From NCBI GenBank assembly GCA_951828515.1, contig OX639992.1, positions 1,352,439 to 1,416,438 on the forward strand: a DNA stretch of 64,000 nucleotides. The letters are read 5' to 3'. Made by a program: the position numbers and the translations under genes. Below the pieces are notes generated by a model. It was given only the letters and a program-made list of their open reading frames with translations, was not told where the DNA came from and made no database searches. Shown piece after piece: positions 8,451-19,823 of this stretch. Position 1 is the first letter of the stretch, and the number at the start of each line of letters is the position of its first letter. The DNA is from an uncultured Poribacteria bacterium. Lineage in GTDB: Bacteria > Poribacteria > WGA-4E > WGA-3G.

Positions 8451-9266
8451 TTAAAAAAATGTAATCCAGTCCTGACCTATTGACGGCACTATAAAACGGA
8501 CGTATACATCGGAAAAACCGACCCAACAGAGACTCATCCACGCCCAAAGCATGTGCCGACGGTTTAAGCAACTGACACAGTTATAGGCTTGCCGACGGAT
8601 TGGAACTTTGGAGAGCAGATCAACAACGCCACCGACTAAGTGACGCAAAGAGTGGCATCCGAGCGTGTAACCGCCTAAAAGGACGACATTACCTGCCAAA
8701 ATGATGGTACCTACACCGATGCCAAAGGTTGTCCCGCCGTTTCCGTCGTCGAACCAGAGTGCTTTCCATACATCGTAAGCGAGAATACCGAGAAAAATGA
8801 TCGCGATATAAAGGAAGTATCTATGGATATTCTGTATAATCAATGGAAACGAATGTTCGCCCCTATAGTTATTACGCGGTTCTGACACCGTGCAAGAGGG
8901 TGGATCTGCCCAGAACGCTTTATAATACGCGCCACGGTAGTAGTAGCATGTAAAGCGAAATCCGAGTGGCATCCACATAATCAGGACTGCTGGGGTAATG
9001 AAACCCGGCATCCAAGACGGCATCATACCAAACCAACTGTGTTCAACGCTGTGCATAACCTCTTCAGTGCCGAAAAGCACCGGTGAGTAGAGAGGGGACA
9101 GGTAGGGTCCGTGAATGAAATGATTCCCTTCAAAAACGCGAAAGAGACCGTAAAGGACGAAGAGTCCCAACCCGACAAATACGGCCAAGGGTTGCAACCA
9201 CCATGTGTCTCGGCGCTGGGTTTGAAAGGGGCGACTTTCTGTTAGGGTGAGTTCAGGGTGCGTCAT
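8451..9266 (-). CDS. sdhC: Succinate dehydrogenase cytochrome b subunit (b558-type, 5 predicted TM helices)
   Basis: Polytopic membrane protein with conserved His residues sitting immediately upstream of sdhA-sdhB on the same strand, giving sdhCAB order as in Bacillus-type SQR. Confidence 0.7.
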   Translation of the reverse strand: MTHPELTLTESRPFQTQRRDTWWLQPLAVFVGLGLFVLYGLFRVFEGNHFIHGPYLSPLYSPVLFGTEEVMHSVEHSWFGMMPSWMPGFITPAVLIMWMPLGFRFTCYYYRGAYYKAFWADPPSCTVSEPRNNYRGEHSFPLIIQNIHRYFLYIAIIFLGILAYDVWKALWFDDGNGGTTFGIGVGTIILAGNVVLLGGYTLGCHSLRHLVGGVVDLLSKVPIRRQAYNCVSCLNRRHMLWAWMSLCWVGFSDVYVRFIVPSIGQDWITFF

Positions 9267-12864: not shown

Positions 12865-13683
12865 TCATCCAATTTCACTAATCGCGATGTGCCACGCCGA
12901 AACGAACGCTTGGACAGATTGATATCTGGACCGCTTGTCTGGATTCGTCGCCTTTTTCGCGACGTGCCATAGCGCATCGTTCCCTTTCCAGTTGTCTCGC
13001 GAATCGCTGTTGTTGGCGAGTAACACGAACGCGGTCCGTCCTAACATAAAGACGTTTGTCCTTTCGTCGATATGCGCGCCTTTCTGAAATTCCTCCGGTG
13101 CCATGAATCGAGTTGAGCCGTACAATCGTCCGCGGTCGTTTATGAACGGTCCCGGATGGTAGCAGTCGAAATCGAACAGGTGTATCTGCTTTTTCTCAAA
13201 GTTATAGATAATACAGCCGTCGTAAAAGTCTTCAGCAATAAACCCTCGTTTTTCGATAAGGATATGGACATCATAGATGACGTTGAGGGCATCAATTATC
13301 TCAGTTGCTGGCAACGCACAAAACCTGTCACGCGGGTGGACTTCACCGGGACCCAGTTCCCTTTCAGGACGCAAACCCTCACCATCTACCCAATTGTAGA
13401 CCAGTGTGAAACCATCGGGCGTAGCGAAAGCATTGTGCAATCGAGGCAGTGCCTCATGCTGGACAGCGGCATGGAAATGAACGGCTTGCTTGAGACCTGT
13501 GATGGCTTGTGGTGTGTTGCCGTGTTTGACGAACCAATGCTCGTTGTCCACCAACACTCTCAATGATTGACATTTTGAATCGTGTTCCGGAAATCGATAC
13601 GTGATTTCGCCGACCTGCTTCAAGTACGCTTCGATATGTGTGTCAATTTCCGAATTTTCCAGAAGTGGATGCCGGGTGGGCAT
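12865..13683 (-). CDS. Protein-kinase-like (APH/eukaryotic-like kinase fold) protein
   Basis: HLFDFD (DFG-like) and YGSTRFMAPEE (APE motif). ATG at 13683 has a GAGG Shine-Dalgarno sequence. Confidence 0.55.
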   Translation of the reverse strand: MPTRHPLLENSEIDTHIEAYLKQVGEITYRFPEHDSKCQSLRVLVDNEHWFVKHGNTPQAITGLKQAVHFHAAVQHEALPRLHNAFATPDGFTLVYNWVDGEGLRPERELGPGEVHPRDRFCALPATEIIDALNVIYDVHILIEKRGFIAEDFYDGCIIYNFEKKQIHLFDFDCYHPGPFINDRGRLYGSTRFMAPEEFQKGAHIDERTNVFMLGRTAFVLLANNSDSRDNWKGNDALWHVAKKATNPDKRSRYQSVQAFVSAWHIAISEIG

Positions 13684-14018
13684 TTCGTTTGTCCTCATCA
13701 GGTGCGGCAAAACAGTCTCTCAACCACTTTGCGTCGGTTTTGTGGGGTTGCGATAAGAGTATACACCAAAGAATGAAAAAAGTCACGCTTTTTTCATCTA
13801 CGTTTCGGTTTGGAAACCCAAGTCTTTAGACTTGGGAGGAAAAACCGCCCTCGTGTGTGAGACCATAGCGTTTTTTTCAAAAACACTTGACATTTTTCGT
13901 AAATTGTGGTTTAATAGATGTATCACGTTGGAAACCGACATGTGAAGCACAACCGCTTGGTTGTGTGTCGGTTTCCTACCCACTTCACAGGGGTTAAAGA
14001 CGTGATACGTGAAATCCA

Positions 14019-15176
14019 ATGAAAAAAAAGCGAAAGCGAAAACAGAAAGGCGCTTGCAGAACGTATAAATATCAGATACGCGAACATCCGAAAAACGTGC
14101 GCTTGGGCAATATGCTTGACGACCTTGGCGATGTCCACAACCACTTCTTGGCACTGGAAAAACGGTATTACCGTATCTATGGTAAATACGCTGGCAGGTA
14201 TCGCTTGCAACCGCATTTGACGAAGTTGCTCGAAAGAACTCACAAGCATTGGGCATGGATACCCCGCGACACGCTTGACGCGGTGATTATTCGTATCCAC
14301 ATCACATACGACCGATTTTTTGACGGTCTTGGCGGACTGCCGAAGTTCAAACGCAAAGACCGCTATCGTTCTGCTAAGTTCCAGTCTGCCTATCAGCTTG
14401 AAGAAGGACGTGTCCGCATTTCGTTTAAGGCGTGGGATGAGTCCTCGCACTCCCTGAAATTCAACAAACGCTGGTTTTCTTTTCACCAACATCGCGAATG
14501 GAATGGAAATGTCCGGTATATCCAAATCCTTCGCGATTCGGTTGGCACTTACTGGCTCTATGTCATCACAGACGACTCCTCGACCGAACCCTATCTTGCT
14601 ACAGGTGAGAGCGTAGGGATAGATTTCGGGCTGGAGACGTATCTGACCCTGAATACCGGTGAGAAAATCGAACATCCGCAACCCTTGAAACAGTCCTTGA
14701 CCGAACTTCGGAAACTCAATAAAAGCCTTTCTCGTAAGGTCAAAGGTTCTCACAATTGGTGGCGTGCTGTCGGCGAACTCGCCCGTCTCTACCGGAAGAT
14801 AGCCAATCAACGCAAAGACTGGCACTACAAACGGGCGACGGACCTCTGCCGACGGTTTGATACCATTGTGGTCGAGACACTCAATCTTGAGGGAATGAAA
14901 CGGCTTTGGGGACGCAAAGTCTCTGACCTCGCCTTCTACCAGTTTGTTCAGATACTGAAGTTCAAGTGTTTCAAACATAAGCGTGAGTTCCTACAAATCG
15001 GACAGTGGACCCCGACAACAAAGCCTTGTTCGGAGTGCGGACATCATAACGAAAATCTTTCTCTTTCTGATAGGCAATGGACATGCCCCGCCTGTGGTTC
15101 CCACCACGACCGAGACGTAAACGCTGCAATGAACATCTTGAGGGCTGCCTTGGGTCCCTCTGTGGAGCAGATGTAA
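14019..15176 (+). CDS. tnpB: RNA-guided endonuclease TnpB (IS605 OrfB) with C-terminal zinc ribbon
   Basis: 385 aa with RuvC-like motifs (GIDFGLETY, ...VVETLNLEGM...) and a CxxC..CxxC ribbon (CSECGHHNE...CPACGSHHDRD). The 351-aa antisense ORF is a shadow ORF. Confidence 0.9.
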   Translation: MKKKRKRKQKGACRTYKYQIREHPKNVRLGNMLDDLGDVHNHFLALEKRYYRIYGKYAGRYRLQPHLTKLLERTHKHWAWIPRDTLDAVIIRIHITYDRFFDGLGGLPKFKRKDRYRSAKFQSAYQLEEGRVRISFKAWDESSHSLKFNKRWFSFHQHREWNGNVRYIQILRDSVGTYWLYVITDDSSTEPYLATGESVGIDFGLETYLTLNTGEKIEHPQPLKQSLTELRKLNKSLSRKVKGSHNWWRAVGELARLYRKIANQRKDWHYKRATDLCRRFDTIVVETLNLEGMKRLWGRKVSDLAFYQFVQILKFKCFKHKREFLQIGQWTPTTKPCSECGHHNENLSLSDRQWTCPACGSHHDRDVNAAMNILRAALGPSVEQM

Positions 15177-15300
15177 GACGTTTTCTCGAAAACGCGAACT
15201 GCTACGAAGCACAAGCCCAACCCTTTAGGTTTGGGTGCCTTGACTGAGACTGTGCGCAAGTGGGTATTTACATCTAAATTCAAGAAATCAAAACTGTCAA
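15120..15300 (+). ncRNA. Candidate omega-RNA (reRNA) of TnpB, overlapping the tnpB 3' end and the IS right end
   Basis: Position relative to tnpB and the right-end hairpin follows the known IS605 architecture. Sequence alone does not define the boundaries. Confidence 0.35.
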
Positions 15301-15663
15301 CGTCAAAATAAGCGAAACCGACAAACGATTAAGCCAAATCTTCTGGCTGGTAATTGCACTTATAGGGCTTATCGCCGTAACTATAGGTGTTCCACAATGG
15401 TTGAACAGCAAAGGATCGCGAACAGTCGGCGAATTTGTTCACTCGCGAACAGACTGAAGTGTCAACGTTATGTTTCTGCTCAAAGTCCGCAACGTTTTCG
15501 TATTCCTTCTTGCGAAATGCTGCGAAATATAGCGAAATGCTGCGAAATATAGCGAAGGAGGAGGAAGTCCACCTCAATGCGTATGAAGATATAAATTTGA
15601 GAAATATGCTATAATAGGATTCTACACCGAATAACAGTTTTCTAATGGAAATGGGATAAGCAC

Positions 15664-15972
15664 GTGGAATCCTACAATAATTGTGAATTTGACTGGGACG
15701 AAGACAAACATAGAGAAAATGTAGAAAAGCACCAAATTTCTTTTCACCAAGCAAGAACAGTATTTGGATCTCCTGATACACTATTAACTGAAAGCGATGA
15801 TTTACATTCACAATATGAACAAAGATATAAAACTATTGGATATTCTAAGAGAGGTAAATTGTTAACTGTTATCCATACAAACAGGAAAAATATAATTAGA
15901 ATAATCTCGGCTAGAAAATCAACTAAAGCAGAAAGGAAATATTACTATGGATATTTTGACGAATACCTATAA
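15664..15972 (+). CDS. brnT: BrnT-family (DUF497) type II toxin
   Basis: EFDWDEDKHRENVEKHQISFHQARTVF...RIISARKSTKAERKYY matches the BrnT signature (DWD..K...N..KHG..F.EA..VF ... R.ISAR.A...E). Confidence 0.8.
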   Translation: MESYNNCEFDWDEDKHRENVEKHQISFHQARTVFGSPDTLLTESDDLHSQYEQRYKTIGYSKRGKLLTVIHTNRKNIIRIISARKSTKAERKYYYGYFDEYL

Positions 15973-16921
15973 TTTAGACAATCTAAAATGGGATAGTAAA
16001 TCAGTCAATGAATATAAAGGAAACCTTATAGAAATTGTAGATTCAATACCTTCTTTTGAAAGAAAACCCTTTAAAATAGGTAGATCAGAAAATAAAAATC
16101 TTGATGTAGTCGTAAATACTTCAGATGGTGGGATACCTATTGCCACAGTTTCTAAGTCATATTCTCTAGTCCAACATTTTGATATACTTCGATTTATTAG
16201 TATGGCATTTGAAAAGCTGAGATATAATATAGAAGAAACTGAATGCGATCTATATCTAACAGAATACGGCGAGCGTATGCTGTTAAGAATACAATTCTTG
16301 AGAGGGCATATATTTGATCCAGGAGATGGTCATCAATTAATACCTCAGTTACATGTTAGAAATTCTGTAGATGGAAATGATCCATTAAGCTTTGAGTTAT
16401 TCTGGTATAGACTGATTTGCAAAAACGGGCTTATGTGTTTGGACACAGAAAGCAGACTTAGTAAACGTCATACTAAATCTTTAAAGACTGAATTACTTAC
16501 TGGATATCTAAGTAAAAACACCTCAAAAATTCTGTCGGAAAAAGAAACGTATGCAAAATGGAAACAGAAAGAACTAAATGCGGATACAGATATAGAAATA
16601 CTACAGAATTGGATTGATACTATAGTATCTAATAGTTGGGGGCATAATTGTGCCGAGAGAGTATATAGTATTATAGAAACAGGACAAGATGTAAAAGTTA
16701 CAAGATTTAAAGATAAAACAACAGAAGAAAACGAAGATTCTTACATAATTAGAGTTTCTTTAGAAGGTGATGTACCGGGGGCGCAACCTGCAGAAAATAT
16801 CTACGATGTTGCCAATGCCCTTTCTTGGGTTTCATCTCATCAGAATTCGCTCCCAAAGCAGTATAAGATGATGCTACAAGTTCCAACAATGCTAAAGGAG
16901 CTTGAAAGTTCTCTTGGGTGA
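15947..16921 (+). CDS. DUF932 (phage/plasmid-associated) protein in the position normally held by the BrnA antitoxin
   Basis: ATVSKSYSLVQHFDILRF, HVRNSVDGNDPLSFELFWYRLICKNG and SKRHTKSL align with conserved DUF932 blocks (Y.lVQN, NShDGs...R.vC.NG, RHT.S). Very AT-rich; the start overlaps brnT by 26 nt. Confidence 0.6.
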   Translation: MDILTNTYNLDNLKWDSKSVNEYKGNLIEIVDSIPSFERKPFKIGRSENKNLDVVVNTSDGGIPIATVSKSYSLVQHFDILRFISMAFEKLRYNIEETECDLYLTEYGERMLLRIQFLRGHIFDPGDGHQLIPQLHVRNSVDGNDPLSFELFWYRLICKNGLMCLDTESRLSKRHTKSLKTELLTGYLSKNTSKILSEKETYAKWKQKELNADTDIEILQNWIDTIVSNSWGHNCAERVYSIIETGQDVKVTRFKDKTTEENEDSYIIRVSLEGDVPGAQPAENIYDVANALSWVSSHQNSLPKQYKMMLQVPTMLKELESSLG

Positions 16922-17056
16922 TATAACCCATTTTGTTTCTCAAAAAGATAGCGCAGTTTTTCAGAGTAAATCTGATTGTATGCGTTCACGTAAGTTCTTC
17001 GTCTCCAGTATGCTATACTAAAGTTTAGAATTAATTAGACACTCCAAAGAGGCGAG

Positions 17057-17403
17057 TGTACTGCCACCGGAAATTTAGACCACTCTCTAATATAAGATTG
17101 TGCTACAATGACAATCTATTTGAAAGGAGCATTCCGATGGCGAAACGCAGAAGATTCACTGCTAAGTTTAAAGCAGAAGTTGTGCTTGAGACACTTACAG
17201 GTGCAAGTTCCCAAGCGGAACTGTGTCGACGCTATAACCTCAGCGAAAACCAAGTCTCAACATGGAAACGGAAACCACTTCTTGAAAATGTTGAAACCTT
17301 CTTTGAGTCGGCAGATAAGCCGTCAAGCGAGTCAGTGGAGCGGATCGCTCAACTTGAGTAACTCGTTGGCCGATTGACGCTGGCGTTGGAAATCCAAAAA
17401 AAG
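17057..17403 (+). pseudogene. Truncated IS3-family copy (left IR plus orfA only), ending at the poly-A slippery site
   Basis: IR TGTACTGCCACCGG at 17057 matches the IRL of the adjacent full copy. OrfA' (17137-17361) is about 75% identical to the full-copy OrfA and diverges after ...ALEIQKK. Confidence 0.75.
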
Positions 17404-17504
17404 CATCAACATTGTTGGATTAACACCCTCTCAACAGCGACCTGTCGTTGAGACGTTGCGAAAGGTGAAGTGCCACCGTTTATTCAGACCACAATTTCGC
17501 AAAT

Positions 17505-18353
17505 TTAATCCAAGTTTTGTTTCTGAAATTCCATAGGTGTCAAATAGTCTAACGCCGAATGGGGGCGTTTTTGGTGATAGACGTGTTCAATAAAATGTCC
17601 AATACGATTTCTCGCTTCATGGATGTCTTCAGAGTCGTTGAGGTGAACTTCTTCCTCCTTGAGGGTTCGGATAAGTCTTTCAGCATATCCGTTCTCCCAA
17701 GGATGCCCGCGACGCGCCACCGAAATCTCAACACCATAATCCCTCAGCGTTGAGATATAGGTATTTGAAAGATATTGAACGCCTTGATCAGAATGATGGA
17801 TCTCCGGGACGCTTCGGTGTAATGCCTCTTTGAGGGGTTTGAGCGTCAGCGGTTGCGTCAAGTGCTGACTGATATGCCACCCTCTAATCATGCGCGTGAA
17901 GACATCCATGAGCAGAGCAACATACACGAACCTGCTTTTCAGATGGACATAGGTAATATCGCCCACCCAGACCTGATCACATCGTGAAACCTCAAGGGTC
18001 TCAACGCGATTCACCCACGGTCGCGGTTCGTCAAGCGATGTGGAGGTCTGACAGACACGCTTGACGGCGACTGACAGGTTCGCAGCTTTCATCAAGCGCG
18101 CAACACGTTTAGACCCAACGGCGTATCCCATCTGCCGTAGCAGCTGTGTGATACGCCTGTATCCATAAGTCGGATACCGCAGCGCCAACGCCTCTATTTC
18201 ATCACAGAGGATGTCTTCAGACGGGTCCTGCTTGGGTCGATAATAGAGGTTACTTCGGGTGAAACCCAGCACCTCACATATCTGTCGAACCGAATAATCC
18301 GTCCGGAGTGCCTCAACGATTTCTCGCTGCTCCGTCAGTTTTGGTCTAACCAC
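17505..18353 (-). CDS. IS3 transposase OrfB (DDE integrase core); expressed as OrfAB fusion via -1 frameshift
   Basis: rve-domain motifs (WVGDITYV, HSDQGVQY, ...ENGYAERL). It is in the -1 frame relative to orfA and overlaps it by 19 nt. Confidence 0.85.
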   Translation of the reverse strand: MVRPKLTEQREIVEALRTDYSVRQICEVLGFTRSNLYYRPKQDPSEDILCDEIEALALRYPTYGYRRITQLLRQMGYAVGSKRVARLMKAANLSVAVKRVCQTSTSLDEPRPWVNRVETLEVSRCDQVWVGDITYVHLKSRFVYVALLMDVFTRMIRGWHISQHLTQPLTLKPLKEALHRSVPEIHHSDQGVQYLSNTYISTLRDYGVEISVARRGHPWENGYAERLIRTLKEEEVHLNDSEDIHEARNRIGHFIEHVYHQKRPHSALDYLTPMEFQKQNLD

Positions 18354-18631
18354 GTCGCTGCTTTTTTTTGAATATCTAATGCCACAGTCAACCGCCCGAC
18401 GAGGTGTTCAAGGTGGGCGATCCGCTCAGCTGCCTCGCTGGACTGTTTCTCTGTGGACACAAACAGAGAGCCTACGTTTTCAACGACTTGCTGCTTCCAC
18501 TTAGAGAGTTGATCTTCACTCAGGTTGTGTCGACGACACACTTCTGCTTGGGAACTTTCACCACTAAGCGCCTCAAGAACAACTTGGCCTTTAAACTCAG
18601 GGGTGAAGTTTCTTCGTTTTCGTTTCGCCAT
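18335..18631 (-). CDS. IS3 transposase OrfA (HTH)
   Basis: MAKRKRRNFTPEFKGQVVLEAL...; ends at the A8G slippery run. Confidence 0.85.
   Translation of the reverse strand: MAKRKRRNFTPEFKGQVVLEALSGESSQAEVCRRHNLSEDQLSKWKQQVVENVGSLFVSTEKQSSEAAERIAHLEHLVGRLTVALDIQKKAATWLDQN
18361..18370 (-). other. A_AAA_AAA_G slippery heptamer for IS3 programmed -1 ribosomal frameshift
   Basis: CAAAAAAAAG lies in orfA. Reading in -1 from here joins ...DIQKK to SSDVVRPKLTEQ (the OrfB frame). Confidence 0.6.
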
Positions 18632-18709
18632 CGGGGCCTCCTTTCAAGTCGTGGAGATTATACCACAATCTTGGTTTAGGGAGTGGCCCGAATTTAGGGG
18701 GGCAGTACA

Positions 18710-18778
18710 TTCTCGTCTTTCCAAAGCTCGCTCATCTTCAGACATTTCGAGTTCATTCCACCATTCTGTGTGCATTGT
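18710..18778 (-). pseudogene. 5' fragment of a small gene (MHTEWWNELEMSEDERALERRE...) cut by the IS3 insertion; intact paralog at 25949-26131
   Basis: A 22-aa match to the 60-aa ORF at 25949-26131, including the GGAGG RBS. The reading frame runs straight into the IS3 IRL. Confidence 0.6.
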
Positions 18779-19268
18779 CGAATCTCCTCCTATCAAGTGC
18801 GCTGTGTATTTCAGGCGTGAAAACGTATTTGAGTTTTAGCAGATTTTCAATATGCCATGCGTTGATGTCTTCTAAGACACGTTTATCGGAGTCAATGTCC
18901 CCTTCACACGATAGACCAATATAGGATCGTGCGATGTCGTTGCGGCGATACCATTCGAGTTCCCCACCAAACCGTGCTTTAATTTCGGATTCCCGTTCTT
19001 TGAGAACATCAAAAATCACTTTGTTTCTTTCACGATTATTAGACCAAAGCCCGAGCACCGTGAACGCTTGTCTACCTTGGTGATAAAAACCTGACAGGCT
19101 TCGCCTACGCCGAAAGCCTGGGACATAATAGATGTCTGTCGTGCCAGAATAGAATTGGTGAAAATGCCTTCCTTGTACAAGATGGGTATTAGGAAAGTTA
19201 TGTTGTTCCGAGAGTTCATCAATTAGTGCTTGAAAATAAAGGGTATACTTCTCCCCTCGATTCGTCAT
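18753..19268 (-). CDS. DUF4268 domain protein
   Basis: YxxxF..L...Lxxxx core and the ...ARFGGELEWYRRNDIARSYIGLSCEGDIDSD... block resemble the DUF4268 family. Confidence 0.5.
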   Translation of the reverse strand: MTNRGEKYTLYFQALIDELSEQHNFPNTHLVQGRHFHQFYSGTTDIYYVPGFRRRRSLSGFYHQGRQAFTVLGLWSNNRERNKVIFDVLKERESEIKARFGGELEWYRRNDIARSYIGLSCEGDIDSDKRVLEDINAWHIENLLKLKYVFTPEIHSALDRRRFDNAHRMVE

Positions 19269-19382
19269 TGTTTTCTCCTATAAAAAACGCAATAAGTCGT
19301 TTTGGGATGGGTTAAATTAGATATAACATTTTGGCACTTGGATTTTCATTCGGAATTAGTCATTTTGGGCTTGTAAAAACTT

Positions 19383-19400
19383 TTTTCAAACTCACGTTAT
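19383..19400. repeat. Solo IS982-type terminal repeat (TTTTTTCAAACTCACGTT)
   Basis: Matches the right IR of the IS982 element at 24181-24198. No transposase lies adjacent. Confidence 0.5.
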
Positions 19401-19415
19401 GACCAAGGTGCCTTA

Positions 19416-19823
19416 TTGACACAACTCGACTTGGCGGTCTTGCTCAACGTCTGTGACGCTGTCGTCAGCGATTACGTCAATGAGTGGCAAAGAGCGAGTG
19501 GAGAAATCTTACCCACGCGGGGCAATATCCATGACTTATCGGGGGCCATTACCCACAAGAAAGAGATCATAACGCTCTATCTTCAAGGGTATCTTACCCC
19601 GACTATTGCTGCCAAGACCAAGCACTCCAAGGAGGCCGTTGACCGATACATCCGAGATTATGAGTCCGTCAAAGTCGTTCGTGCGGCAACTGCCGATATT
19701 GACAACATCTCACAGATTACACGACTTTCGAGACGTGTTATCTCGCAATATCTCGACCTAATTCCACAGCATCAACTCCAAACCATCGATGCAAACTTAG
19801 CAAAACAGGAGGAGTCCACTTGA
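19416..19823 (+). CDS. Hypothetical protein, possibly DUF1670-like
   Basis: The conserved-looking block TRGNIHDLSGAITHKKEI is recalled from DUF1670 proteins. This is a weak assignment. Confidence 0.35.
   Translation: MTQLDLAVLLNVCDAVVSDYVNEWQRASGEILPTRGNIHDLSGAITHKKEIITLYLQGYLTPTIAAKTKHSKEAVDRYIRDYESVKVVRAATADIDNISQITRLSRRVISQYLDLIPQHQLQTIDANLAKQEEST

What the first reader, a model, noticed from the sequence alone, without database searches (positions are those of the whole stretch)
15480..16921. BrnT toxin paired with a DUF932 phage/plasmid protein instead of BrnA, in an AT-rich islet with a tandem 20-bp operator-like repeat
The BrnT (DUF497) toxin gene is intact. The gene occupying the antitoxin position overlaps it by 26 nt but is a 324-aa DUF932-family protein. 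Conserved DUF932 blocks Y.LVQ, NSxDG...R.xCxNG and RHTxS are recognisable, where a roughly 80-aa RHH BrnA would be expected. The whole segment 15.3-17.0 kb is far more AT-rich than the surrounding genome. It lies between an IS605 end and an IS3 remnant, consistent with a mobile origin. Upstream at about 15486-15550 is a direct duplication of GCTGCGAAATATAGCGAAAT immediately followed by GGAGG, a plausible autoregulatory operator. Either DUF932 is a novel BrnT-neutralising partner, or BrnT here regulates a DUF932 function; DUF932 is of unknown function and frequent on ICEs and phages.
Basis: partly seen in the sequence, partly recalled or inferred. Interest (0 to 1): 0.6.

Follow-up and report, generated by a model that had tools for sequence, protein, structure and literature searches.

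The report
BrnT toxin with DUF932 partner
In a sponge-symbiont (Poribacteria) genome, a BrnT RNase toxin gene is followed by a 324-residue DUF932 protein of unknown function instead of a small antitoxin; relatives show that DUF932 was once fused to the antitoxin's front end, a piece this copy has since lost.

Summary
brnT (15664-15972, PF04365 E=4e-25) overlaps a 324-aa DUF932 gene (15947-16921, PF06067 above threshold) by 26 nt, inside a 1.33-kb AT-rich cassette (15591-16921).

The pairing is not unique. brnT sits directly upstream of this DUF932 lineage in 17 Poribacteria genome loci and 5 metagenome contigs. It is never beside the roughly 45 DUF932 homologues from other phyla.

Deeper-branching relatives (350-393 aa) carry a 35-63-residue N-terminal extension (DPDMLxEYDFSKGVRGKYAERY...). 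It is homologous (E up to 1e-21) to an unannotated ~73-aa protein family that lies just downstream of BrnT in 60 of 71 metagenome loci. So the DUF932 protein inherited the antitoxin slot by gene fusion.

The window's clade deleted that motif in frame but kept brnT under purifying selection. Its BrnT also changed at residues that are otherwise near-invariant (D36S, I43E, P46D).

The "operator" repeat lies in the 3' remnant of an IS3 transposase gene, outside the conserved cassette. It is not an operator of this cassette.

Whether the motif-less DUF932 still neutralises BrnT is unresolved. I put it at about 0.45, against about 0.35 for a relic or attenuated toxin.

The parts
15591..16921 (+). 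Conserved two-gene brnT-DUF932 cassette (promoter, brnT, DUF932 gene); GC about 0.31-0.34
   Evidence: blastn of the window against related loci. Homology with L001, L002, L003 and L011 begins at 15588-15591 and ends at 16915-16919 (16989 in L002). Flanks differ between genomes. The module is AT-rich in all 324-aa-clade loci.
15607..15615 (+). Extended -10 promoter element TGcTATAAT. The -35 box (TTGACA or TTGGCA in relatives) is missing here because of a deletion.
   Evidence: Alignment of upstream regions. L011 has TTGACA, about 18 nt, then TATAAT. L001 and L002 have TTGGCA. In the window the junction at ~15591-15594 replaces the -35 box. The consensus scan found no full sigma-70 site on the + strand. 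Promoter function is inferred.
15664..15972 (+). brnT, 102 aa, GTG start conserved across the clade
   Evidence: PF04365 E=4.3e-25; PDB 7vd7 'toxin' E=1e-9; phrog_4399. Most residues that are invariant in canonical BrnT are kept. E29 is Q here, and D36, I43 and P46 are changed in the whole clade.
15947..16921 (+). DUF932-family gene, 324 aa, with an AGGA ribosome-binding site 8 nt upstream that lies inside brnT
   Evidence: PF06067 32.6 bits. AF2 model pLDDT 79.6, pTM 0.71. Foldseek finds 33 phage DUF932/TIGR03299 proteins at E<1e-3. 82 homologues.
15947..15972 (+). 26-nt brnT/DUF932 overlap. The start codon sits at the same place as in the N-terminally extended relatives.
   Evidence: Three-frame reading of the junctions in the window, L161, L017, L004, L009 and L012.
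16915..16940 (+). Terminator-like hairpin plus T-run spanning the DUF932 stop codon
   Evidence: Consensus scan; function not shown.
15512..15556 (.). 20-bp tandem duplication (2.2 copies). It is not part of the cassette.
   Evidence: TRF and the repeat finder. It lies in flank DNA shared only with L001 and within the IS3 orfB remnant.
15528..15594 (+). 3' remnant of an IS3-family orfB (transposase) pseudogene. Its last ~184 nt are deleted relative to L001.
   Evidence: blastx: YSEMLRNIAKEEEVHLNAYEDIN against OrfB residues 223-245 (E=5e-5). In L001 the match runs to the end of OrfB (67% over 60 aa, E=2e-23).
13798..15246 (+). IS605-type tnpB element inserted in the left flank (context)
   Evidence: PF01385 and PF07282 on the ORF at 14019..15176. 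L001 is contiguous across this interval.
17057..17465 (+). Truncated IS3 5' end (orfA with an in-frame stop) (context)
   Evidence: blastx to orfA, 64% over 91 aa; 88% DNA identity to the IS3 in L023.
17466..18709 (-). Complete IS3-family element (orfA 18631..18335, orfB 18353..17505) (context)
   Evidence: Pfam HTH_Tnp_1 and rve; blastn to L023.

Best explanation
The cassette is a derived brnTA-type type II toxin-antitoxin operon in which a DUF932 protein now occupies the antitoxin slot.

History (shown by comparison):
1. The ancestral state is brnT followed by a ~73-aa partner. That partner has an N-terminal DPDMLxEYDFSKGVRGKYAERY motif and a short C-terminal region (its fold was not tested).
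2. In Poribacteria, the front 35-63 residues of that partner became fused in frame to a DUF932 domain. The result is a 350-393-aa protein that starts at the same overlapping start codon.
3. In the window's very successful clade, the motif was removed by an in-frame deletion of about 48 codons, leaving the 324-aa protein.

Mechanism (inferred):
- In the extended forms, the disordered N-terminal tail binds and neutralises BrnT, while DUF932 replaces the antitoxin's C-terminal domain.
- In the window's form, the folded DUF932 body is proposed to control BrnT directly through a newly evolved interface. Translational coupling would keep the two proteins in stoichiometric balance.

The biochemical activity of DUF932 itself remains unknown.
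For: - Pairing: brnT lies directly upstream, co-oriented and overlapping, in 17 of the Poribacteria genome loci and in L161, L163, L164, L165 and L167. None of ~45 non-Poribacteria homologues has a BrnT neighbour.
- Origin of the extension: it matches a profile of the small-protein family at E=1e-12 to 1e-21, over 35, 43 or 63 of 74 positions. That family lies just downstream of BrnT in L075-L080 and in 60 of 71 assessable metagenome loci.
- Direction of change: in a rooted NJ tree the extended forms are paraphyletic, so the extension is ancestral and was lost twice.
- Same start codon in extended and short forms.
- The extension is predicted to be disordered (pLDDT about 30 for residues 1-54) on a confidently folded body, as expected for a toxin-binding tail.
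- Selection in the 324-aa clade: brnT is intact in 14 of 16 loci, with dN/dS 0.35-0.58 at dS 0.5-0.75. DUF932 has dN/dS 0.18-0.27.
- Order of decay: brnT decays first (L005, L007) while DUF932 stays intact. That is the asymmetry expected for a toxin and its antidote.
- BrnT in this clade switched to new, conserved states at positions near-invariant elsewhere: D36 to S/P, I43 to E, P46 to D. Most of the otherwise conserved residues are kept.
Against: - The only segment with demonstrable homology to an antitoxin is exactly what the window's protein lacks.
- No binding or neutralisation data exist, and complex modelling could not be run.
- brnT evolves about twice as fast as DUF932 at non-synonymous sites.
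- The window sublineage carries E29Q at a residue that is 100% conserved in 56 canonical BrnT, and it has lost the cassette's -35 box.
- In L163 an IS3 sits between the two genes, with both apparently intact.
- In the second lineage that lost the motif (the P0067 group), brnT is gone altogether.
- DUF932 proteins outside Poribacteria show no toxin association.
Confidence: 0.45

Rival explanations
1. Relic or attenuated toxin. After the neutralising motif was deleted, BrnT in this clade is no longer controlled by the DUF932 protein. It survives because it is weakened (for example by E29Q and altered surface residues), poorly expressed, or neutralised in trans by orphan copies of the 73-aa antitoxin elsewhere in the genome. 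DUF932 is the gene under selection, and brnT mainly provides its promoter and translational coupling.
For: - Motif loss.
- Relaxed constraint on brnT compared with DUF932.
- Relaxed or variable BrnT positions A16, L39/S40, R91 and E95, plus E29Q in the window sublineage.
- brnT is truncated in L005 and L007 while DUF932 is intact.
- IS3 insertion between the two genes in L163.
- The window lacks the -35 box.
- Orphan 73-aa antitoxin genes without an adjacent BrnT exist in contigs L070-L074, whose closest named relative comes from a Poribacteria MAG.
- 11 of 71 small-antitoxin loci lack an adjacent BrnT.
Against: - brnT ORFs remain intact, and most of the otherwise conserved residues are kept, across a clade whose synonymous divergence approaches saturation. 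dN/dS is clearly below 1.
- D36, I43 and P46 moved to new conserved states rather than drifting.
- No small-antitoxin gene lies within the 64-kb window or within 4 kb of any 324-aa-clade locus.
Confidence: 0.35
2. Sensor-effector (defence-like) module. DUF932 is not a simple antidote but a sensing or regulatory domain. It holds BrnT inactive and releases it on a trigger such as invading DNA or a phage protein. Alternatively, BrnT is an accessory regulator of a DUF932 activity. The fusion to the antitoxin tail was the way BrnT was recruited as an effector.
For: - DUF932 relatives sit in mobile-element and defence-island contexts: TrwC relaxase, ParB_N, resolvase, type I restriction-modification, PglZ. 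They also occur on phages.
- A preprint reports strong selection on a DUF932 gene after phage exposure and proposes a defence role (10.1101/2025.06.20.660599).
- A genome can carry several diverged copies (L009+L012, L016+L021, L017+L018).
- The cassette is AT-rich and lies in an IS-rich neighbourhood.
Against: - No match to any PADLOC defence model.
- No trigger or activity is known.
- The cassette itself was not found on IMG/VR viral contigs or on plasmids.
- This reading partly overlaps the best explanation and cannot be separated from it by sequence alone.
Confidence: 0.15
3. Chance juxtaposition created by IS activity: an orphan brnT next to an unrelated mobile-element gene.
For: IS605 and IS3 elements flank the segment.
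Against: - The same overlapping pair, with the same start-codon position, recurs in more than 20 loci with unrelated flanks and protein divergence down to 46%.
- The cassette boundaries are identical across genomes.
Confidence: 0.02

Closest known systems
[quoted passage not shown] 2012, as summarised in PMC11980606)
   Same: - BrnT-family (PF04365) toxin.
- Toxin gene first, then the partner gene, co-oriented and overlapping.
- Small bicistronic cassette present in several copies per genome.
   Different: - The partner is not BrnA (PF14384) and has no detectable RHH or HTH domain.
- It is a 324-aa DUF932 protein.
- No conserved operator was found.
- Neutralisation has not been shown.
Unannotated ~73-aa BrnT partner family (DPDMLDEYDFSKGVRGKYAERY...; alignment A2, e.g. 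P0103 in Ardenticatenaceae)
   Same: - It occupies the same slot after brnT, with a 17-nt overlap.
- Its first 35-63 residues are homologous to the N-terminal extension of the DUF932 relatives (P0054, P0056, P0059-P0064, L017-L019, L021).
   Different: - The window's protein has lost this segment entirely.
- The family has no Pfam, NCBIfam or PDB relative, and no experimental test of it turned up in the searches made here.
DUF932 (PF06067) / TIGR03299 'phage/plasmid-like protein' family (from memory, includes E. coli YfjQ and YafZ)
   Same: - Pfam match above the gathering score.
- The conserved blocks are present.
- The predicted fold matches phage DUF932 proteins (Foldseek probability 1.0).
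   Different: - Scores far below the TIGR03299 cut-off.
- Other DUF932 proteins are not toxin-linked.
- This lineage is restricted to Poribacteria and is chromosomal.
Antitoxin modularity and partner swapping in type II TA systems (for example the fused or domain-swapped modules catalogued in PMC11980606; Panacea/PanA-type antitoxins, from memory)
   Same: A toxin-binding segment is recombined with a different C-terminal domain.
   Different: - The recruited domain is large, of unknown function, and not known to bind DNA.
- The toxin-binding segment was subsequently deleted while the toxin was kept.

Membership tests
BrnT toxin family (PF04365 / DUF497) | Sequence match to the family profile above the curated threshold | tested here: met
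   88.3 bits against a cut-off of 34.5, E=4.3e-25, covering profile positions 1-77 of 77. PDB 7vd7 E=1e-9.
BrnT toxin family (PF04365 / DUF497) | Retention of residues that are near-invariant in BrnT proteins with a canonical partner | tested here: inconclusive
   K15, N19, H23, F27, A30, T32, D45, H48, S49, E52, R54, G59, S61, R79, S82, R84 and Y94 are kept. E29 is Q in the window sublineage, and D36, I43 and P46 are replaced in the whole clade. Which of these residues are catalytic is not known to me.
BrnT toxin family (PF04365 / DUF497) | Ribonuclease activity and growth inhibition | not testable with these tools
   Needs expression and RNase assays.
BrnA antitoxin (PF14384) / RHH antitoxins | BrnA or RHH domain in the downstream gene or in any nearby small ORF | tested here: not met
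   The 324-aa protein matches only PF06067. Eight small ORFs around the cassette have no credible Pfam match at E<=1 (one chance-level hit only). A profile of the 73-aa partner family finds nothing in the six-frame translation of the window (best hit E=0.067, in a TPR protein).
DUF932 (PF06067) | Profile match above the gathering score, plus a matching fold | tested here: met
   32.6 bits against 23, residues 65-220. Relatives score up to 60 bits. Foldseek against BFVD gives 33 hits at E<1e-3, named DUF932 or TIGR03299.
TIGR03299 (LGT_TIGR03299 subfamily) | Score at or above the curated cut-off | tested here: not met
   24.1 bits against a cut-off of 110.7.
Type II toxin-antitoxin system | Conserved co-directional, adjacent or overlapping gene pair that includes a known toxin domain | tested here: met
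   17 genome loci and 5 metagenome contigs.
Type II toxin-antitoxin system | The partner protein carries a toxin-neutralising segment | tested here: not met
   This holds for the window's 324-aa form. The antitoxin-derived motif is present in sister forms but is deleted here. A new interface cannot be excluded.
Type II toxin-antitoxin system | Direct binding and neutralisation of the toxin by the partner | not testable with these tools
Needs co-expression, rescue and pull-down experiments.
Type II toxin-antitoxin system | Autoregulatory operator in the promoter | tested here: not met
   This holds for the proposed 20-bp repeat. It lies outside the conserved cassette, inside an IS3 orfB remnant, and is absent from all other loci except L001. 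No alternative conserved operator was identified.

The most novel reading that the evidence does not exclude
DUF932, a widespread phage, plasmid and ICE protein of unknown function, is here a genuine toxin-controlling domain. It was first tethered to BrnT through a borrowed antitoxin tail, then evolved its own interface and discarded the tether. That would be a caught-in-the-act example of how a new antitoxin (or toxin-coupled sensor) class is born. It would also be the first functional handle on DUF932.
Probability: 0.35. Interest if true: 0.75.

Novelty: new variant of a known kind. Interest (0 to 1): 0.6.

Why it matters
DUF932/TIGR03299 proteins are common on phages, plasmids and ICEs. In the literature searched here they have no assigned function.

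This lineage gives a concrete, testable link: a DUF932 protein that inherited the antitoxin position of a BrnT RNase toxin. A graded natural series exists, from a 63-residue antitoxin tail through 43 and 35 residues to none. That series can be synthesised and tested for BrnT binding and rescue.

If the tail-less form still neutralises BrnT, it documents the birth of a new antitoxin domain. If it does not, it shows how a toxin is retained and remodelled after losing its cognate neutralising motif.

The work also exposes an abundant BrnT partner family of ~73 aa that no Pfam or NCBIfam model covers, so current annotation would list many brnT genes as orphans.

Tried and rejected
- Operator reading of the 20-bp repeat: rejected. 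It is an IS3 orfB remnant, it is not conserved with the cassette, and GGAGG is simply the codons for KEEE.
- Hidden BrnA or small antitoxin: none found in the window or in the flanks of related loci.
- Chance adjacency: rejected by the comparative data.
- PADLOC: no defence model matched.
- Rfam: no RNA family in 13000-19500.
- Plasmid collection, tblastn: no match.
- IMG/VR viral contigs: only distant DUF932 homologues, at most 31% identity.
- Heaton et al. 2012 (PMC3320955) is not held, so the catalytic and interface residues of BrnT could not be checked against experiment.
- The window's N-terminal residues 5-15 (NTYNLDNLKW) as a vestige of the antitoxin's last helix: left open. The L..LKW segment aligns equally well to the native N-terminus of outgroup DUF932 proteins. 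Codons 1-8 are also constrained by dual coding with the brnT 3' end.
- The inverted repeat 15610-15625 / 15664-15679 is not conserved across the clade and was not pursued.
- Frameshifts in DUF932 in L164 and L167 are probably long-read assembly errors and were not counted as evidence.

Full report
**What is there.**
- The window comes from a Candidatus Poribacteria genome; the best locus, OZ246979.1, is 99% identical.
- brnT is at 15664-15972: GTG start, 102 aa, PF04365 at E=4.3e-25.
- A 324-aa ORF at 15947-16921 overlaps it by 26 nt. This ORF matches DUF932 (PF06067, 32.6 bits against a gathering score of 23) but not the narrower TIGR03299 model (24 bits against 110.7).
- GC drops to 0.29-0.34 across the pair, against about 0.48 outside.
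- A perfect 20-bp tandem duplication lies at 15512-15556.
- An AF2 model of the 324-aa protein is reasonably confident (pLDDT 79.6, pTM 0.71). It has no PDB counterpart by Foldseek. It matches 33 phage DUF932/TIGR03299 proteins in BFVD.

**The pairing is conserved, but only in one lineage.**
- A scan of one genome per species found 69 loci encoding relatives.
- A BrnT ORF lies immediately upstream, on the same strand and overlapping, in 17 Poribacteria loci.
- L013 is cut by the contig end but keeps the brnT 3' end. L005 and L007 keep only 3' remnants of brnT next to an intact DUF932 gene.
- Starting instead from BrnT, all four close relatives whose contigs I looked up (P0204, P0207, P0210, P0217) are followed by DUF932.
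- None of the roughly 45 homologues from Acidobacteriota, Verrucomicrobiota, Firmicutes and other phyla (25-36% identity) has a BrnT neighbour. Their neighbours are a heterogeneous mix of mobile-element and defence genes: TrwC relaxase, ParB_N, resolvase, type I R-M, PglZ.
- The conserved unit is window 15591-16921. Flanks are unrelated between genomes, and the unit is AT-rich (0.30-0.35) in all loci of this clade. One genome can carry two diverged copies.

**Where the DUF932 partner came from.**
- Relatives at 46-68% identity are 350-393 aa long. They carry an N-terminal extension such as MNKATPDQHDPDMLNEYDFSKGVRGKYAERYRASRNLVRLD.
- That segment alone retrieves 287 small proteins of about 73 aa, all unnamed and without Pfam domains.
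- These small proteins sit directly downstream of BrnT, with a 17-nt overlap, in Ardenticatenaceae loci L075-L080. The same holds in 60 of 71 assessable metagenome loci. They are therefore the usual partner of this BrnT subfamily.
- They have no Pfam, NCBIfam or PDB relative.
- A profile of the family matches the DUF932 extensions at E=1e-12 to 1e-21, over 35 (L017), 43 (L018/L019) or 63 (L021) of 74 positions.
- L161 (P0054, 68% identical to the window protein) has BrnT plus an extended DUF932 with the canonical 17-nt overlap.
- The start codon is at the same position in extended and short forms. The 324-aa form therefore differs by an in-frame loss of about 48 codons.
- In a rooted NJ tree the extended forms are paraphyletic, so the extension is ancestral and was lost twice. 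One loss is at the base of the 324-aa clade, where brnT was kept. The other is in the P0066-P0074 group, where brnT is absent (L022, L162).
- AF2 predicts the extension of P0054 to be disordered (pLDDT about 30 for residues 1-54) on a folded DUF932 body. This is typical of toxin-binding tails of type II antitoxins (general knowledge).

**What happened to BrnT after the motif was lost.**
- Within the 324-aa clade, brnT is intact in 14 of 16 loci.
- Its dN/dS is 0.35-0.58 at dS of about 0.5-0.75. For DUF932 the value is 0.18-0.27. brnT is therefore constrained, but less so than DUF932.
- I compared it with 56 canonical BrnT proteins (partner = small antitoxin) and with the 4 BrnT proteins of the extended clade. 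Most near-invariant residues are kept. D36 (100% conserved elsewhere) became S/P, I43 became E and P46 became D; these are new conserved states. A16, L39/S40, R91 and E95 became variable.
- I read this as remodelling or relaxation of the surface that used to contact the lost motif. That is an inference; no complex structure exists.
- The window sublineage (window, L001, L002, P0203, P0204) additionally has E29Q at a residue invariant in all 56 canonical proteins.

**The "operator".**
- The tandem repeat and the following GGAGG translate as YSEMLRNIAKEEEVHLNAYEDI. This is homologous to residues 223-245 of the IS3 OrfB encoded at 17505-18353.
- In L001 the same stretch continues to the OrfB C-terminus (67% over 60 aa, E=2e-23).
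- The segment 15247-15594 is shared only with L001. It is absent from L002 and from all other cassettes.
- The repeat is therefore a frameshifting duplication inside a transposase pseudogene, not an operator of the cassette.
- Relatives show a sigma-70-like promoter (TTGACA or TTGGCA, about 18 nt, TGcTATAAT). In the window, a deletion that removed the last ~184 nt of the IS3 remnant also removed the -35 box, leaving only the extended -10 at 15607-15615.

**Surroundings.**
- Window 13798-15246 is an IS605-type tnpB insertion that L001 lacks.
- To the right lie a truncated IS3 5' end (17057-17465) and a complete IS3 (17466-~18709).
- IS3 elements also interrupt DUF932 in L023 and separate brnT from DUF932 in L163.

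**Interpretation.**
- Shown: a conserved brnT-DUF932 operon; descent of the DUF932 partner from a fusion with BrnT's normal small partner; loss of that segment in the window's clade; continued but relaxed selection on brnT, with lineage-specific substitutions.
- Inferred: that the extension is the toxin-neutralising element, and that the 324-aa protein still controls BrnT through a new interface.
- I give the new-interface reading about 0.45.
- A relic or attenuated toxin, possibly covered in trans by orphan small antitoxins such as P0086, gets about 0.35.
- A sensor-effector or defence reading gets about 0.15.
- The function of DUF932 is unknown in the literature I could search. BrnT/BrnA background is taken from PMC11980606.

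**Novelty.** This is a new variant of a known kind. It is a BrnT toxin-antitoxin cassette with an unprecedented partner architecture and a natural series of intermediates. The papers held here that mention DUF932 do not describe this pairing.

Noticed in passing
L075:2001-2225 (P0103); L081-L160; alignment A2: There is an abundant family of ~73-aa proteins (DPDMLDEYDFSKGVRGKYAERYaeGTNvV.LdpDVAevFpDseSVNeALRaL) with at least 485 matching stretches in JGI metagenomes. It lies directly downstream of BrnT in 60 of 71 assessable loci. It has no Pfam, NCBIfam or PDB relative. It is probably the main antitoxin of a large BrnT subfamily that current annotation leaves as 'hypothetical'.
   Followed up: partly
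L070:2501-2722 (P0086) and L071-L074: Orphan copies of that small antitoxin have no brnT upstream and sit next to a HicA/HicB pair. They lie on metagenome contigs of unconfirmed origin; a close relative, P0084, is from a Poribacteria MAG. They might act in trans on BrnT copies that lost their own neutralising motif.
   Followed up: no
window 13798-15246: An IS605-type tnpB element (ORF 14019..15176, OrfB_IS605 plus Cas12f1-like TNB domains) is inserted here relative to the otherwise ~88-98% identical locus L001. A 77%-identical tnpB copy lies in L001 at 8554-8967.
   Followed up: partly
window 17057-18709; L023:1908-3129; L163:513-1639; L001:3462-3644: The same IS3 family repeatedly hits this AT-rich cassette. 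It is nested right of the cassette in the window, inside DUF932 in L023, between brnT and DUF932 in L163, and abutting the promoter in L001 and L002.
   Followed up: partly
window 15591-15615 versus L001:3620-3670: The window copy lost the cassette's -35 box (TTGGCA in L001/L002, TTGACA in L011) through a ~184-nt deletion that also removed the end of the IS3 remnant. Only an extended -10 (TGcTATAAT) remains.
   Followed up: partly
window 15748-15750 (BrnT residue 29): The E29Q substitution, at a residue invariant in 56 of 56 canonical BrnT proteins, is confined to the window, L001, L002, P0203 and P0204 sublineage. It may attenuate the toxin.
   Followed up: partly
L021:3541-4960: This is the most complete fusion, with 63 of 74 antitoxin positions joined to DUF932, but it is decaying. 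The motif invariants are mutated (E to K, R to I, R to Q), BrnT has H48D and R79H, and DUF932 is frameshifted.
   Followed up: partly
L062:858-4945 (Vicinamibacteraceae MAG): Three DUF932 domains lie in tandem. Two are within one 895-945-aa ORF and a third is in the next ORF.
   Followed up: no
window 15649-15658 and 15986-15995: There is an exact 10-nt repeat, AAATGGGATA. One copy is just upstream of the brnT start, in a segment conserved across the clade. The other is within DUF932 codons 14-17 (LKWD). It may be chance in AT-rich DNA.
   Followed up: no
L162:5705-6614: The motif-less, BrnT-less DUF932 relative P0067 lies near a ParA-like ATPase plus an RHH protein (a partition-like pair), a tnpB and a beta-CASP/metallo-beta-lactamase gene. 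This points to a mobile-element context.
   Followed up: no
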